From: an uncultured Gammaproteobacteria bacterium
Lineage (GTDB): Bacteria > Patescibacteriota > Microgenomatia > JAMCZE01
Assembly (NCBI GenBank): GCA_964609775.1
Contig: CAZSSJ010000002.1
Location: forward strand, 19,260-83,259
DNA length: 64,000 nucleotides
Direction of reading: 5' to 3'
Shown here one piece after another: positions 61,012-64,000 of the stretch. The position numbers and the translations under genes were made by a program. Under the pieces are notes generated by a model. It saw nothing but the letters and a program-made list of their open reading frames with translations, did not search any database and was not told the DNA's origin. Within the stretch, counting starts at the first letter, position 1; every line of letters begins with the position of its first letter.

Positions 61012-62154
61012 ATGCCGTGCATATTAAAAAAACTGGCAAGGAAAAGTCCGGGTATAGTCACTTTTACTCATAACGAAGCCCTATATGGTTTACCGGCGAG
61101 ATCGCGTAAGGTTAAAAACTACATTACCCAAACCTCTGGGAAAAGATGGATTTATGGCGTTCATCTTCAGGGCAGCTTGAAACATCTGAAGGAGTGGCCA
61201 CTTGAGCCCTGGCAAGCATTCATTTCTTGGTCGAACCCAAAGTCCCCATTTCTGTCAAATGTCCCCACCGAAAAACTAATTGATATTAATCACATTAATC
61301 TTCTACCCGAATTTGGGTTTACCCCACGCCCTAAGATTTGGGACATCATCATTATTTCTCGGCCATCAAAAATTAAAAGAATTCAGGAATCAGTTTTCAT
61401 CATTAAAAAATTAATGTTGAAAAGACCTGAGTTAAAAACAATTTTTATCGTTCCAACTCCCAGTCGGCAAGCCAAAGACATTGACCGGAGTTTTTTTGAA
61501 TTGCCCAAAAGGTTATTTTCTACTAAAGAGATGAAAAATACATCATTTATTGTTTCACCGACTGAAAGTTTCGGAAATTTTCCCGTTTCCTCAGAACTAA
61601 TATCAAAATTGATTTCACAGTCAAAATTTTTACTGTTAACTTCTCACCGTGAAGGTGGGCCACGGGCGATTGGCGAAGCGCTTCTGGCGGGAACACCCTG
61701 CATTATATCTAAAAATTTAGACACGGGAATCGTGGGCGTTTTTGACAATAAAAATACTCTCACAATCGACGACAATATCGATCTAGCCACGCAGCAAATT
61801 AATCAAGGCTTGCAAAATTACTCTTCATTTAAAATTGATGATAAAAAAATCTGCCGCTTTTTCAGTGAGCGGCATAATAAGCCAATATTTAAAGCCAAAT
61901 TATCAAAACTACTAACACAAATGAGTTACCAGGTGGCGGGAGAATGGTATCTTGAAGATTTGTCTTTTCGGCTCTGCGGTCACGGTCGAAAATTCAGTTT
62001 TCAATCCCTGGACGACGACCGACAATTCTTTTTTTGGTTTGATAAGATTACTTCAGTAAATCCATATGATGAAGATGGTCTGATTTATCACCCCGAATCA
62101 TTATCAGACTATGCTCTTCGGAAACTAAAAAGGTTATGGCAGACAAGACGCTGA
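61012..62154 (+). CDS. Hypothetical protein, GT-B (GT4-like) C-terminal Rossmann domain candidate
   Basis: Motifs: WDIIIISRPSKIKR and LLLTSHREGGPRAIGEALLAGTPCIISKN (E-x7-E-like). The N-terminal half is not recognisable. Confidence 0.4.
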   Translation: MPCILKKLARKSPGIVTFTHNEALYGLPARSRKVKNYITQTSGKRWIYGVHLQGSLKHLKEWPLEPWQAFISWSNPKSPFLSNVPTEKLIDINHINLLPEFGFTPRPKIWDIIIISRPSKIKRIQESVFIIKKLMLKRPELKTIFIVPTPSRQAKDIDRSFFELPKRLFSTKEMKNTSFIVSPTESFGNFPVSSELISKLISQSKFLLLTSHREGGPRAIGEALLAGTPCIISKNLDTGIVGVFDNKNTLTIDDNIDLATQQINQGLQNYSSFKIDDKKICRFFSERHNKPIFKAKLSKLLTQMSYQVAGEWYLEDLSFRLCGHGRKFSFQSLDDDRQFFFWFDKITSVNPYDEDGLIYHPESLSDYALRKLKRLWQTRR

Positions 62155-63015
62155 TATTTTTTCTCCTCATGATTCCTGGCACCCTGCTCCTCGGAATCAA
62201 TGACGTTCTTGCTCGAAAGATTCTTCGTTCCGGGGTGGCCGACAGTCTTCTTGTGGGGCTAATGTTCTTGGCCTCGGGAGTTCTTGGCCTTGCCCTTTTA
62301 TCTCTTTTTGGTCTTCCGGAAATAAAAAATGGCTTTTGGCTGGTTTTTTCGGGAACTGTAATTCTCAATGTTTTTGGTCAGGTGGCTTGGTACCGAGCCT
62401 TCAAACTCGAGAGGTATCTTTACTTTCTCCACTGTGCCTCTTGACCCCGCCCCTCGTCATTTTCACCGGCTCCTCCTTCTTCACGAACAGCCAACACTTG
62501 CCGGTGTCAGCGGGATCCTGATTACCACACTGGGTTTGTTAGTCCTCCTCCAGCCGGATCTTTTATCAACAGAGCTAAAAATAAAAGCTGTTGTCTTGAG
62601 AAAAGGCGTGGTCTACGGCATTATCGGCGCCATCCTATTTTCCTTTTCTTTTCCCTTGGACAAAATCACCATATCAAAACCTTCAGGTCTCGTTTTGGCA
62701 GCTGGAATGAGTACGGCCGTCGGTCTAACGACCCTTCTCTACAGCCTTGTGACGAGCAGTGGACAGCGTGCTAATCCTCATCTTCTCATCAAAGAAAAAA
62801 CCCTCATATTTCTAATCATCACTATCTTTGCTGGCACCGTGCTCGTTTCCCAAGCCCTCCTCTACGCTCCCGTGGCCAACGCCGCCAGTGTTAAAAGGCT
62901 CTGGTCCCTCTGGGCTGTGATCTTGGGCGGGAAGTTTCTCCACGAGAGTCACATCAAAGAAAAAATTATTGCCACAGTCATTATGGCCTTGGGGATTTTT
63001 CTGCTCTCAGTTTAG
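62136..63015 (+). pseudogene. DMT/EamA-family transporter disrupted by two frameshifts
   Basis: Three overlapping ORFs (62136-62444, 62336-62521, 62368-63015) tile one EamA-like sequence. It reads ..QVAWYRAFKLE | EVSLLSPLCLLTPPLVIFTGSSFF | (L)HEQPTLAGVSGILITTLGLLVLL.., with frame changes near 62409-62413 (GAGAG) and about 62465-62480 (TCCTCCTTCTTC). Confidence 0.55.
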
Positions 63016-63588
63016 GGGTAGGGAAGTTGGGTCAACTCTTTTAGCCTGAAGTAATAAATTACAAAAATCTCGTACCGCGCCGCTACCAGCCTCCCGTGAT
63101 GCTGTGAAATGGGCGATGTCCTTGATAATCTTCTCCGCTCCGGCAGGGCAAGCCGCCAGACCGACCTTTTTCATCACTGGGTAATCGCCCAAATCATCGC
63201 CCATAAACGCACATTCATCCCAAGCAAGACCCAGTTTTTTCAGCCAATTTCCAACGACCTTGACTTTCCCTTCTCCCGCCGCCTGGACAAAAACGTCTAC
63301 TTTAGGCCACTTGCCGGATTTAGCCGAAGGCAAACTGTTTAATTTTTCAGCGAATTTTGGCAAGAAATTGTCGCCCGTTGCAGTGACAAAGCAGATTCTC
63401 AGGCCTATCCCGCGCAGAAGCGAAATCCCCTGGCCATCAACATGGCTTCTAACGCGTTGGACTTCACCCTTTTCGGAGTCAAACCAGACGGTCGCCGAAA
63501 AAAGGACCCCGAGCGACCCAAAGCCGGCCGCTTTAATTTTTTTAGCTTGAGCTAGAACCTTACTCTTTTGTGTCTTTCTTTTTACCAT
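63007..63588 (-). CDS. KdsC-like HAD-IIIA family protein lacking the DxD nucleophile motif
   Basis: Motifs HVDGQGISLL, CFVTATG, GEGKVKVV, FMGDDLGDYPVMKKVGLAACP and GSGAVRDFCNLLL align to KdsC. The position of DVDGVL reads LFSATVW, and there is no Asp in the first 37 residues. Confidence 0.6.
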   Translation of the reverse strand: MVKRKTQKSKVLAQAKKIKAAGFGSLGVLFSATVWFDSEKGEVQRVRSHVDGQGISLLRGIGLRICFVTATGDNFLPKFAEKLNSLPSAKSGKWPKVDVFVQAAGEGKVKVVGNWLKKLGLAWDECAFMGDDLGDYPVMKKVGLAACPAGAEKIIKDIAHFTASREAGSGAVRDFCNLLLQAKRVDPTSLPLN

Positions 63589-64000
63589 TGTTAAGTTGTT
63601 TTTTTAAAAAGCTTTCGGCTAAAGACCAGTCGGCCGGTTCGTCAATGTCAATCGCCTTTTCTTCCGGCATGACATAGACACCAATTTTACCACCCAAGCG
63701 ATTTTTATAAGTCTCTAAGACTTCTTTCTTCGTCAGGTAAAACGCCCCATTTTCATTGACCACGCCTTCAAATTCCTGTCGTCTGGGACGATGCAAGTAG
63801 TCATAGTTTAGCGGCTTGCCGTCTAGTGTCCAGTAGAACTTTTTGTACAGTATTCCAGTTAGCATTGAATCCCAGCCATTTTCAAAGAACAATTCAATCG
63901 CCTGGTCCAAATCCTCGCTGGTCGTAAATGGCGATGTGGCCTGAATCAGATTTAAAACGTTAAAATCCTTTATGAGTGTCGCAAAATGGAGCATTACCGA
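63560..64000 (-). CDS. neuA: Acylneuraminate/nonulosonate cytidylyltransferase (NeuA-like), C-terminal part (5' end outside window)
   Basis: The frame is open to the window edge. Motifs: LIQATSPFTTSEDLDQAIELF, NENGAFYLTKKEVL and KAIDIDEPADW, typical of CTP_transf_3. It overlaps the HAD gene by 29 nt. Confidence 0.7.
   Translation of the reverse strand, partial: SVMLHFATLIKDFNVLNLIQATSPFTTSEDLDQAIELFFENGWDSMLTGILYKKFYWTLDGKPLNYDYLHRPRRQEFEGVVNENGAFYLTKKEVLETYKNRLGGKIGVYVMPEEKAIDIDEPADWSLAESFLKKQLNNGKKKDTKE

What the first reader, a model, noticed from the sequence alone, without database searches (positions are those of the whole stretch)
63007..64000. NeuA-like cytidylyltransferase followed by a KdsC-like HAD protein lacking its catalytic DxD: a split version of the animal CMP-sialate synthetase layout
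On the minus strand, a nonulosonate cytidylyltransferase (QATSPF, IDIDEPADW) overlaps a 193-aa KdsC-family HAD protein by 29 nt. The HAD keeps motifs II-IV (FVTATG; K in GEGKVK; GDDLGD) and the tetramerisation-type C-terminus. Where DVDGVL should be, it reads LFSATVW, and it has no Asp in the first 37 residues. Vertebrate CMP-sialic acid synthetases carry a fused KdsC-like C-terminal domain reported to be phosphatase-inactive and to act as an oligomerisation platform. Here the same pairing appears as two coupled genes. It also indicates that a sialic, legionaminic or pseudaminic acid or Kdo-type sugar is activated next to the glycan locus.
Basis: partly seen in the sequence, partly recalled or inferred. 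Interest (0 to 1): 0.5.

Follow-up and report, generated by a model that had tools for sequence, protein, structure and literature searches.

The report
Dead KdsC-like phosphatase beside sugar-activating enzyme
A groundwater candidate-phylum bacterium encodes, coupled to the enzyme that activates sialic-acid-like sugars, a well-folded phosphatase look-alike that has lost both catalytic aspartates; this recalls the inactive tail domain of animal CMP-sialic acid synthetase, but it is one of many eroded members of a bacterial family and may be partly a relic.

Summary
Window 63007-63588 (-) encodes a 193-aa KdsC/YrbI-fold protein (AF2 pLDDT 96; Foldseek TM 0.8-0.9). It overlaps by 29 nt the 3' end of a CMP-nonulosonate synthetase gene cut by the window edge. 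The DxDGV slot reads G24-S25-L26-G-V, not LFSATVW. Motifs II-IV and the oligomerisation hairpin are kept. No upstream start exists, and four assemblies are base-identical, so this is not an error.

Context changes the reading:
- The protein belongs to a Patescibacteria-specific KdsC-like family, usually arranged CTP-HAD-NeuB with an intact DxD.
- Natural CTP-HAD fusions exist, including one (P0218) with this same HAD subfamily.
- About 10% of family representatives have a degenerate motif I.
- Here the NeuB is a NeuB-SAF-TIM-barrel fusion. The closest cytidylyltransferase orthologues carry that fusion and no HAD. Two other such loci have Asp-less HADs, one of them frameshifted.

Best reading: a catalytically dead pseudo-phosphatase whose activity became dispensable. 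It is retained under purifying selection (dN 0.38, dS saturated), probably as a non-catalytic partner of the synthetase. A decaying relic is a serious rival. This is a new variant of a known kind, of moderate interest.

The parts
63007..63588 (-). Gene for the 193-aa KdsC-like HAD protein without the catalytic Asp pair (pseudo-phosphatase, P0001)
   Evidence: ORF. Family matches. AF2 pLDDT 96.2. Foldseek hits to YrbI/KdsC, TM 0.8-0.9. 100% identical to a protein of Candidatus Yanofskybacteria RIFCSPHIGHO2_02_FULL, seen on at least 24 contigs.
63560..64000 (-). 3' part (last 146 codons plus stop) of the 233-aa CMP-nonulosonate synthetase (CTP_transf_3) gene; the rest lies beyond the window end
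   Evidence: Full length P0094 = L001:9328-10029. Keeps QATSP and DID, which correspond to Q104 and D209/D211 of N. meningitidis CNS, the residues shown to matter in PMC2901514. Best PDB relatives are 9t4z and 1qwj.
63560..63588 (-). 29-nt overlap of the two genes (HAD frame is +1 relative to the synthetase frame); no Shine-Dalgarno-like purine block upstream of the ATG, consistent with translational coupling
   Evidence: Read directly from the sequence.
63599..63610 (-). T5A7 run inside the synthetase gene that contains the HAD-frame stop (TAA 63606-63604); loss of one A, or a +1 slip of tRNA-Lys on the A run, would fuse synthetase and HAD in frame
   Evidence: Read directly from the sequence. 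Purely a sequence observation; the run is identical in four assemblies. No evidence of recoding.
63502..63522 (-). Degenerate motif I: F23-G24-S25-L26-G27-V28-L29 in place of the family's F-D-G-D-G-V-F/L
   Evidence: Alignments. D24 and D26 are 100% conserved in 64 main-family sequences.
63412..63450 (-). R47-SHVDGQGISLL-R59, the end of the beta-hairpin and the following helix (the oligomerisation flap of KdsC-type enzymes); the best conserved segment of the family, even in fully eroded members
   Evidence: Strands E30-37 and E41-47 and helix H49-60 in the AF2 model.
63376..63390 (-). Motif II region F67-V-T69-A-T71: Thr69 kept; family Glu71 (SGEK, equivalent to E56 in TGEK of B. thetaiotaomicron KDN-9-P phosphatase) replaced by Thr
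   Evidence: The role of E56 as a specificity residue is from my own knowledge of Lu et al. 2009 (J Biol Chem); it was not retrievable here.
63307..63342 (-). Family-specific insertion L83-NSLPSAKSGK-W94, absent from KdsC, KDN-9-P phosphatase and CMAS-CT
63265..63267 (-). Motif III Lys108 (kept)
63184..63201 (-). Motif IV G130-D-D-L-G-D135 (kept)

Best explanation
The 193-aa protein is a catalytically dead member of a Patescibacteria-specific branch of the KdsC/YrbI (cap-less, type C0) HAD phosphatases.

In most relatives this protein carries an intact DxD and sits in the order cytidylyltransferase - HAD - NeuB. There it most likely removes the phosphate from a NeuB-made nonulosonate phosphate before CMP activation.

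In this genome the NeuB partner is a different type, a NeuB-SAF-TIM-barrel fusion. That pathway runs without any HAD in the closest relatives, so phosphatase chemistry became dispensable. Both motif I aspartates were lost (G24, L26), and so was the putative sugar-specificity Glu (T71). Without the nucleophile no phospho-aspartyl intermediate can form. This step follows from established HAD mechanism and was not assayed.

The rest of the protein has been kept under purifying selection and is co-translated with the CMP-nonulosonate synthetase. That includes the fold, the oligomerisation hairpin, motifs II-IV, the family insertion and the C-terminal tail. The most likely present role is therefore non-catalytic: an oligomeric partner or scaffold, or a ligand-binding subunit, of the synthetase. 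This would work like the inactive C-terminal domain of vertebrate CMP-sialic acid synthetase.

Shown: fold, lost residues, gene coupling, family context, selection signal. Inferred: loss of activity, physical association, scaffold role.
For: Fold and motifs.

Not an artefact.

Family context:
- In 27 GTDB and 64 metagenome loci the HAD lies beside CTP_transf_3 and/or NeuB, nearly always with DxD.

Fusions ('Rosetta stone' evidence):
- P0218 (425 aa) fuses a cytidylyltransferase to this same HAD subfamily, including its insertion.
- P0175, P0201 and P0209 fuse a 56-60%-identical cytidylyltransferase to another KdsC-like domain.

Dispensability of the phosphatase:
- Cytidylyltransferase orthologues at 74-78% identity carry the same NeuB-SAF-AP_endonuc_2 fusion and no HAD.
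- The other NeuB-fusion loci that have a HAD carry Asp-less ones: L072 reads SGI, L099 reads GGV.

Retention:
- Compared with P0002, which has also lost D+2, dN is 0.38 and dS is saturated.
- Identity at codon positions 1/2/3 is 0.65/0.73/0.39.
- 52 of 62 family-conserved positions are kept, including all 13 residues of RSHVDGQGISLLR.

Non-catalytic function elsewhere in the family:
- 12 of about 126 full-length representatives lack the canonical DxD. Several have also lost motifs III and IV yet keep the hairpin, the WNxLPS insertion, RxGGxGAxRD and the IDPxxL tail.
- In L019 a degenerate copy (PSI) starts directly after the cytidylyltransferase stop, while an intact paralogue (DWDG) sits beside NeuB.
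- L091 and L065 likewise combine degenerate and intact copies.

CMAS parallel.
Against: - No experiment or multimer model supports a physical complex.
- The closest cytidylyltransferase orthologues work without any HAD, so a scaffold cannot be essential to this enzyme type.
- The window's HAD is the least conserved member of its group: 52/62, equal to the family minimum. It has the longest branch. It is 10-15 identity points further from intact HADs than they are from each other. This is what relaxation would give.
- A related Asp-less copy is frameshifted in two contigs (L099, L100).
- The EamA transporter gene next door is also split by a frameshift in this genome.
- The grouping of D+2-less proteins into one old clade is not robust. 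Bootstrap support is 2-36% once the motif I columns are removed. The selection argument therefore covers the lineage history as a whole and not necessarily the time since the nucleophile was lost.
Confidence: 0.5

Rival explanations
1. Decaying relic. After the locus switched to a NeuB-TIM-barrel-fusion pathway that needs no phosphatase, the HAD gene lost its function. It is drifting towards loss and remains an intact ORF only because too little time has passed.
For: - Closest cytidylyltransferase orthologues with the same NeuB fusion have no HAD.
- L099 and L100 carry a frameshifted Asp-less HAD in the same kind of locus.
- The neighbouring EamA gene is frameshifted here.
- The window's HAD is the most diverged member of its group.
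- Monophyly of the degenerate clade is weakly supported.
Against: - The ORF is full length, with no stop or frameshift.
- dN is 0.38 against saturated dS, and codon positions 1/2 are much better conserved than position 3, versus P0002, which shares the D+2 loss and the derived LFSATV and FVTA(T/G)G strings.
- 52/62 conserved positions are kept, including motifs II-IV, which have no reason to persist under drift.
- The AF2 model is very confident.
- The tight 29-nt overlap with the synthetase is kept.
- Asp-less copies co-exist with intact paralogues in L019, L091 and L065, which is more typical of subfunctionalisation than of decay.
Confidence: 0.28
2. Still an enzyme. The protein keeps the phosphate/Mg2+ site (T69, K108, D131, D132, D135). 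It could hydrolyse or bind a phospho-sugar by a non-canonical route, such as direct water attack, or it could have acquired a different activity.
For: Motifs II-IV are all retained although motif I is gone. Relatives with only D+2 replaced (DGL, DSV, DSY) could keep weak activity.
Against: All characterised HAD phosphotransferases use the motif I Asp as a covalent nucleophile (established mechanism, my own knowledge). Here it is Gly, with no acidic residue nearby in sequence; the first Asp is residue 37. The putative specificity residue Glu71 is also lost. More eroded relatives lose motifs III and IV as well, which shows that family function does not depend on the site.
Confidence: 0.08
3. The two ORFs are really one gene, a CMAS-like fused synthetase-HAD protein produced by a +1 ribosomal slip or by loss of one A at the T5A7 run. 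The apparent split would then be a recoding site or a recent frameshift of an ancestral fusion.
For: The HAD-frame stop lies inside the A7 run, so deleting one A gives an uninterrupted fusion (...SFLKNNLTMVKRK...). Natural fusions exist in relatives.
Against: A7 is short for efficient slippage, and no slow codon follows it. The nearest relative (L005) has the two genes 111 nt apart with no overlap. Many loci have separate genes. The HAD ORF has its own ATG, aligned with the family N-terminus.
Confidence: 0.04
4. Artefact: a sequencing or assembly error, or a wrong start codon, hides an ordinary DxD phosphatase.
For: None found.
Against: DNA is identical in four independent assemblies. The stop lies five codons upstream with no alternative start. 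Multiple base changes would be needed to restore two Asp codons. The relative P0002 shares part of the change.
Confidence: 0.01

Closest known systems
KdsC / YrbI, 3-deoxy-D-manno-octulosonate 8-phosphate phosphatase (HAD type C0, subfamily IIIA; PDB 3mn1, 2r8e, 3i6b)
   Same: Same cap-less Rossmannoid fold with a beta-hairpin flap (Foldseek TM 0.8-0.9, rmsd 1.7 A). Best PDB sequence match, 1e-18. Motifs II, III and IV conserved.
   Different: Motif I is G-S-L instead of D-V-D. Thr71 stands where KdsC has the substrate Arg (TGRK). There is a 13-residue insertion (NSLPSAKSGKWPK) and a distinct conserved tail (V/IDPTSLxL). Scores fall below the curated KdsC cut-offs (66.5 vs 208; 61.6 vs 106.95). 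The genomic partner is NeuB/NeuA-like rather than KdsA/KdsB.
KDN-9-phosphate phosphatase BT1713 of Bacteroides thetaiotaomicron (PDB 3e81)
   Same: Top NCBIfam hit (NF058599, 7e-20). The wider Patescibacteria family shares its S/T-G-E-K motif II signature and the operon logic with a NeuB-type synthase and a cytidylyltransferase.
   Different: The score of 71.7 is far below the 180 cut-off. The window protein lacks D10/D12 and the E56 equivalent. The insertion is present. So the window protein is a dead relative, not a member.
C-terminal domain of vertebrate CMP-sialic acid synthetase (mouse CMAS-CT, PDB 3ewi)
   Same: A KdsC-like module attached to a CMP-sialate synthetase whose nucleophile Asp is replaced (CNIDGC). 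It is reported to lack phosphatase activity and to form a tetramer platform (PMC8636478, citing Oschlies 2009). The window's synthetase is itself closest to eukaryote-type enzymes.
   Different: Here it is a separate gene with a 29-nt overlap, not a fusion. CMAS-CT keeps D+2 but has degraded motif IV (GNEVSD); the window protein has lost both Asp but keeps GDDLGD. There is no specific sequence relationship (4e-11, partial alignment), and CMAS-CT lacks the insertion. The resemblance is convergent or parallel erosion, not orthology.
Bacterial fused cytidylyltransferase-KdsC-like proteins (P0175, P0201, P0209; P0218)
   Same: Cytidylyltransferase 56-60% identical to the window's. P0218 carries the same HAD subfamily, including the insertion, at 44% identity. 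They sit in the same kind of glycan locus with NeuB.
   Different: They are fused, they keep DxD (SDFDGVW, LDADGVL), and they are followed by a short stand-alone NeuB. They are presumably bifunctional phosphatase-synthetases.

Membership tests
HAD superfamily phosphatase, KdsC/YrbI type (C0) | Cap-less Rossmannoid HAD fold with beta-hairpin flap | tested here: met
   AF2 pLDDT 96.2, pTM 0.91. The top 50 Foldseek PDB hits are all YrbI/KdsC-type, TM 0.75-0.93.
HAD superfamily phosphatase, KdsC/YrbI type (C0) | Motif I DxD: Asp nucleophile plus Asp+2 general acid/base at the end of strand 1 | tested here: not met
   G24-S25-L26 occupy these positions in MAFFT, HMMER and hmmalign alignments. D24 and D26 are invariant in 64 main-family sequences.
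HAD superfamily phosphatase, KdsC/YrbI type (C0) | Motif II Ser/Thr, motif III Lys, motif IV (G)DDxxD | tested here: met
   T69, K108 and G130-DDLGD-135.
HAD superfamily phosphatase, KdsC/YrbI type (C0) | Score above curated family cut-off (TIGR01670, NF007019) | tested here: not met
   61.6 vs 106.95 and 66.5 vs 208. Only Pfam Hydrolase_3 passes (24.9 vs 20.9).
HAD superfamily phosphatase, KdsC/YrbI type (C0) | Mg-dependent phosphatase activity; homotetramer | not testable with these tools
   Needs an enzyme assay and SEC-MALS. The hairpin sequence and predicted strands are present.
KDN-9-phosphate phosphatase (NF058599) | Score above the equivalog cut-off, and the Glu of the T-G-E-K motif | tested here: not met
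   71.7 vs 180. T71 replaces the Glu that is 94% conserved in the Patescibacteria family.
CMAS C-terminal-domain-like inactive HAD module | KdsC-like fold with the catalytic nucleophile replaced | tested here: met
   G24 here; Asn in 3ewi (CNIDGC).
CMAS C-terminal-domain-like inactive HAD module | Covalently fused to the C-terminus of the CMP-sialate synthetase | tested here: not met
   Two ORFs in different frames with a 29-nt overlap. Fusions occur only in relatives.
CMAS C-terminal-domain-like inactive HAD module | Specific sequence relationship to CMAS-CT (closer than to active KdsC enzymes) | tested here: not met
   3ewi scores 4e-11 over residues 96-178 only, against 1e-18 for YrbI. Pairwise BLAST gives similar values to all outgroups.
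CMAS C-terminal-domain-like inactive HAD module | No phosphatase activity; acts as a tetramerisation platform for the synthetase | not testable with these tools
   The literature basis for CMAS is PMC8636478. No multimer prediction or assay was available here.
CMP-nonulosonate synthetase (Pfam CTP_transf_3), for the upstream gene | Pfam score above gathering threshold; P-loop ARGGSK, QATSP, DxD metal site | tested here: met
   P0094 scores 87.5 vs 22.6. The sequence shows LIPARGGSKSIPYKN, IQATSPF and IDIDEP. The importance of the residues is from PMC2901514. The PseF equivalog is not met (116 vs 205.7), so the sugar is undetermined.

The most novel reading that the evidence does not exclude
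Patescibacteria harbour a sizeable, so far undescribed set of KdsC-derived pseudo-phosphatases that act as dedicated non-catalytic oligomerisation or regulatory subunits of CMAS-type CMP-nonulosonate synthetases. These would be a free-standing bacterial counterpart of the vertebrate CMAS C-domain, whose function is still called unknown (PMC8636478). The window's two-gene pair would then be a simple, separable system for finding out what that domain does.
Probability: 0.2. Interest if true: 0.6.

Novelty: new variant of a known kind. Interest (0 to 1): 0.4.

Why it matters
If the dead HAD is a working partner of the synthetase, it gives a genetically separable bacterial model for the enigmatic inactive C-domain of animal CMP-sialic acid synthetase. 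A point mutation in that domain is lethal in fish, yet its role is unresolved (PMC8636478).

The finding also shows that automatic labels mislead here. This protein is named 'Phosphatase kdsC' and '3-deoxy-D-manno-octulosonate 8-phosphate phosphatase' in public records. About one in ten representatives of the family may be mislabelled in the same way. This matters for metabolic reconstructions of candidate-phyla bacteria.

Finally, intact HADs go with stand-alone NeuB, while absent or eroded HADs go with the NeuB-SAF-TIM-barrel fusion. This suggests two biochemically different nonulosonate routes in these organisms, one through a phosphorylated intermediate and one not. That prediction is testable.

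If the protein is merely a relic, the finding is an ordinary example of gene decay after a pathway change.

Tried and rejected
- Alternative upstream start or sequencing error: rejected.
- A second, intact KdsC-like gene in the window plus 10 kb of flank: none found by a family HMM against all ORFs. The remaining 7 kb of the contig and the rest of the genome were not searched.
- The DAHP_synth_1 gene 9 kb upstream as a KdsA that would need a KdsC: rejected. It scores as a type I-beta DAHP synthase (105 bits) rather than KdsA (26 bits), and it sits beside an FkbO/RidA-like gene.
- The search for related loci with the broad alignment A2 failed because there was no conserved stretch. It was repeated with A3 and A5.
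- tblastn of the L005 EamA protein against the window gave nothing. The split was shown with Pfam instead.
- One ancient, monophyletic 'D+2-less' clade: the NJ tree of 194 sequences shows it. Bootstrap with the motif I columns removed gives only 2/100 for 10 lineages and 36/100 for the window + L072 + L099 + P0002 core. I therefore do not rely on it.
- P0253 (2101 aa, 15 matched stretches) is a low-complexity repeat protein and a spurious hit.
- Literature searches found nothing on nonulosonic acids in Patescibacteria, HAD/KdsC pseudo-phosphatases or BT1713 Glu56. Lu et al. 2009 is not held.
- Model coordinates are not exposed, so the ten substituted conserved positions could not be mapped in 3D.
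- No multimer prediction was possible.
Full report
**1. What is in the sequence**

On the minus strand, an ORF of 193 codons runs from 63588 to 63007. A second ORF enters from beyond the window end and stops at 63560. The two overlap by 29 nt, with the downstream ATG at 63588-63586 and the upstream TAA at 63562-63560.

The upstream fragment contains IQATSPF and IDIDEPADW and matches cytidylyltransferase models. On the parent contig it is a complete 233-aa protein, P0094, with Pfam CTP_transf_3 at 87.5 bits.

The downstream protein matches KdsC-type HAD models. It scores 7e-20 against KDN-9-P phosphatase, 2e-18 against KdsC and 8e-17 against TIGR01670. All three scores are well below the curated cut-offs.

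An AlphaFold2 model built on 89 homologues is very confident (pLDDT 96.2, pTM 0.91). Its best 50 PDB matches are all YrbI/KdsC-type enzymes (TM 0.75-0.93, rmsd about 1.7 A).

The organism is a Candidatus Yanofskybacteria (Patescibacteria/CPR) population from the Rifle aquifer.

**2. The missing DxD**

The substance of the claim is right: neither the nucleophile Asp nor the Asp+2 acid/base is present.

Motif II (T69), motif III (K108) and motif IV (GDDLGD) are kept.

The change is real, for these reasons:
- The HAD frame has a TAA five codons upstream of the ATG and no other start codon in between.
- The 9.7 kb around the gene is base-identical in four independent assemblies and equals the window.
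- The only variant protein on record differs at M129I.

**3. The family it belongs to**

The word-index search returned 93 homologues, almost all from Patescibacteria. Most are 187 aa long and 45-59% identical to the query.

Compared with E. coli KdsC, B. thetaiotaomicron KDN-9-P phosphatase and mouse CMAS-CT, the family has three features of its own:
- a 13-residue insertion (LNSLPSVKSGKWP);
- an S-G-E-K motif II signature like the T-G-E-K of the KDN-9-P phosphatase;
- a conserved IDPxxLxL tail.

Among the 93 homologues, the window protein is the only one without the nucleophile. Four others lack only Asp+2: P0002 and P0011 (DGL), P0063 (DGF) and P0078 (DAN).

The exhaustive search of 1.84 billion representatives found 3477 relatives. 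Among the top 150, 114 have DxD and 12 full-length representatives do not (DSV, DSY, GVD, NVG, GAK, SVS, GGV, GGG, GVN, and the window's own GSL).

Several of these have also lost motif III and motif IV (GNDLVA, ANDLPE, GHDLVQ, GAEFAH). They still keep RSHxDGQGISLLR, the insertion, RxGGxGAxRD and the tail. Catalytic erosion is therefore recurrent in this family, and what stays conserved is the oligomerisation hairpin and the family-specific elements.

**4. Genomic context**

Beyond the window end lie, in order, a PhyH-type dioxygenase, a 630-aa NeuB-SAF domain fused to an AP_endonuc_2 TIM barrel, a 457-aa unknown protein, a Crp-type regulator and further genes. Its sugar cannot be named, because the PseF and NeuB equivalog cut-offs are not reached.

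I examined 27 GTDB loci and 64 metagenome loci with family HMMs built here, plus individual look-ups. The HAD lies beside a cytidylyltransferase and/or a NeuB in the great majority. The commonest order is CTP-HAD-NeuB, with a stand-alone NeuB and an intact DxD.

Natural fusions exist:
- P0175, P0201 and P0209 join a cytidylyltransferase 56-60% identical to the window's to a KdsC-like domain with DFDGV. Two were looked up, and each is followed by a short NeuB.
- P0218 joins a cytidylyltransferase to this very HAD subfamily, insertion included, with LDADGV.

The 'animal layout' is therefore a common bacterial arrangement. In its usual form the HAD looks like a working phosphatase.

**5. Why the aspartates could be lost here**

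The closest orthologues of the window's cytidylyltransferase (74-78% identical) sit next to the same NeuB-SAF-TIM-barrel fusion with no HAD gene at all (L038, L039). One sits alone among housekeeping genes (L037).

The other NeuB-fusion loci that do have a HAD carry Asp-less ones:
- L072 reads FSGIGVL, with GNDMND in motif IV.
- L099 and L100 read LGGVGVL. That copy is in addition frameshifted, in two contigs.

The only NeuB-fusion locus with an intact HAD (L026) also has a second, stand-alone NeuB.

I infer that the fusion-type NeuB route does not pass through a phosphorylated product. If so, selection on phosphatase chemistry lapsed. This correlation rests on few loci and is an inference, not a demonstration.

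**6. Retained or decaying?**

Evidence for retention:
- Against P0002 (55% identical), dN is 0.38 while dS is saturated. P0002 shares the Asp+2 loss and the derived strings LFSATV and FVTA(T/G)G.
- Identity at codon positions 1/2/3 is 0.65/0.73/0.39. For the adjacent cytidylyltransferase it is 0.73/0.81/0.37.
- 52 of 62 positions that are at least 90% conserved in the main family are kept, including motifs II-IV and the whole hairpin.
- The gene is tightly coupled to the synthetase.
- In L019 an Asp-less copy (FPSIGVL, GHDVGD) starts immediately after the cytidylyltransferase stop. An intact paralogue (DWDG, GDDLND) lies 0.9 kb further on, next to a histidine phosphatase and NeuB.
- L091 and L065 also pair degenerate with intact copies. 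This looks like division of labour rather than decay.

Evidence for decay:
- The score of 52/62 equals the family minimum.
- The branch is the longest in its group.
- Intact HADs are 59-68% identical to each other even when their cytidylyltransferases are only 33-46% identical. The window's HAD is only 45-53% identical to them.
- L099 and L100 are frameshifted.
- The convergent EamA transporter gene next door is split by a frameshift in this genome. It is 305 aa and intact in L005.

An NJ tree groups ten D+2-less lineages into one exclusive clade. Bootstrap support with the motif I columns removed is only 2% for the ten lineages and 36% for the four-member core. I therefore cannot say whether the loss is one old event or several.

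**7. Mechanism proposed**

Without the motif I Asp, no phospho-aspartyl intermediate can form. This rests on established HAD chemistry, from my own knowledge.

The protein should still fold, oligomerise through its hairpin, and possibly bind an anionic ligand or Mg2+ through motifs II-IV. I propose that it is co-translated with the CMP-nonulosonate synthetase and serves as its non-catalytic oligomeric partner.

The supporting facts are:
- the gene coupling;
- the Rosetta-stone fusions in relatives;
- the precedent of mouse CMAS. Its C-domain (3ewi) reads CNIDGC and GNEVSD, shows no phosphatase activity, and provides a tetramer platform (PMC8636478).

The window's synthetase is itself nearest to eukaryote-type enzymes (9t4z 1e-46; 1qwj 6e-37; 1eyr 6e-20). 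No step of the association was tested. I give this reading about 0.5 and the relic reading about 0.28.

**8. Comparison and novelty**

The protein has a KdsC fold but fails the defining motif I and the curated score thresholds, so it should not be filed as KdsC or as a KDN-9-P phosphatase. It works like CMAS-CT in being an Asp-less KdsC-like module attached to a sialate-type synthetase. It is not fused, it is not specifically related to CMAS-CT, and it has eroded different motifs.

I found no paper describing such proteins in Patescibacteria. That is an absence in the held library only.

My verdict is a new variant of a known kind and moderate interest (0.4). The broader pattern is the more useful result: roughly one in ten family representatives is eroded, and erosion correlates with NeuB type. 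The single gene is the less interesting part.

Noticed in passing
window 62136-63015 (+): The EamA-family transporter gene convergent with the HAD gene (their 3' ends overlap by 9 nt) is split into two overlapping ORFs (62136-62444 and 62368-63015). The first carries a truncated first EamA repeat and the second a full second repeat. The homologous gene in L005 is one 305-aa ORF. The split is identical in four assemblies, so it is a genuine frameshift: a likely pseudogene, or possibly recoding.
   Followed up: partly
L001 6478-8370 (-), about 1.2 kb beyond the window end; also L038 7727-9682, L039 8634-10544, L026 5116-7032, L072 1152-3050, L099 7698-9596: NeuB-SAF fused to a C-terminal xylose-isomerase-like TIM barrel (AP_endonuc_2), 630-651 aa, recurrent in Patescibacteria. 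Loci with this fusion have no KdsC-like HAD or an Asp-less one. Loci with a stand-alone NeuB have intact HADs. This suggests two different nonulosonate routes.
   Followed up: partly
L001 324-4448 (parent contig, about 5-9 kb beyond the window end): A type I-beta DAHP-synthase-like gene (276 aa, closer to DAHP synthase than to KdsA) sits near a 345-aa FkbO/Hyg5-chorismatase-like RidA-domain protein and a 650-aa unknown protein. This is an unexpected shikimate-branch-like pair for a reduced CPR genome.
   Followed up: no
window 63599-63610 (-): A T5A7 run in the synthetase gene contains the HAD-frame stop codon. Deleting one A, or a +1 slip, would give an in-frame synthetase-HAD fusion resembling CMAS and P0218. 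There is no evidence that this happens.
   Followed up: partly
L019 7266-11947: The locus reads cytidylyltransferase, Asp-less HAD (FPSIGVL), TylF-like methyltransferase, intact KdsC-like HAD (DWDG), histidine phosphatase, NeuB. A dead and a live paralogue lie in one operon-like row.
   Followed up: partly
L031 7884-8465: A fully eroded family member (SSVSGVL, motif III lost, GHDLVQ) lies among housekeeping genes (ndk, lepA, prfB, ftsE, ftsX), far from any glycan genes. It still keeps the hairpin, the insertion and the tail. Its function is unknown.
   Followed up: no
L099 5893-6563 and L100 (same coordinates): An Asp-less HAD (LGGVGVL) is broken by a 1-nt frameshift just before motif IV in two metagenome contigs. 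It lies in a CTP-DegT-SDR-HAD-NeuB-fusion locus that also encodes a weak polysialyltransferase-like match.
   Followed up: partly
window 63560-64000 (-) and L001 9328-10029: The cytidylyltransferase is more similar to eukaryote-type CMP-Kdn/CMP-sialate synthetases (P. parvum 9t4z, mouse 1qwj) than to classic bacterial NeuA (N. meningitidis 1eyr). It is 70-81% identical across many Patescibacteria.
   Followed up: partly
L001 8387-9229 (-): A PhyH-family Fe/2-oxoglutarate dioxygenase gene lies directly between the NeuB fusion and the cytidylyltransferase, transcribed divergently from the latter. It may modify the nonulosonate.
   Followed up: no
public records of P0001: The same protein is labelled 'Phosphatase kdsC' and '3-deoxy-D-manno-octulosonate 8-phosphate phosphatase' in public databases. 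That activity is not compatible with its motif I.
   Followed up: yes
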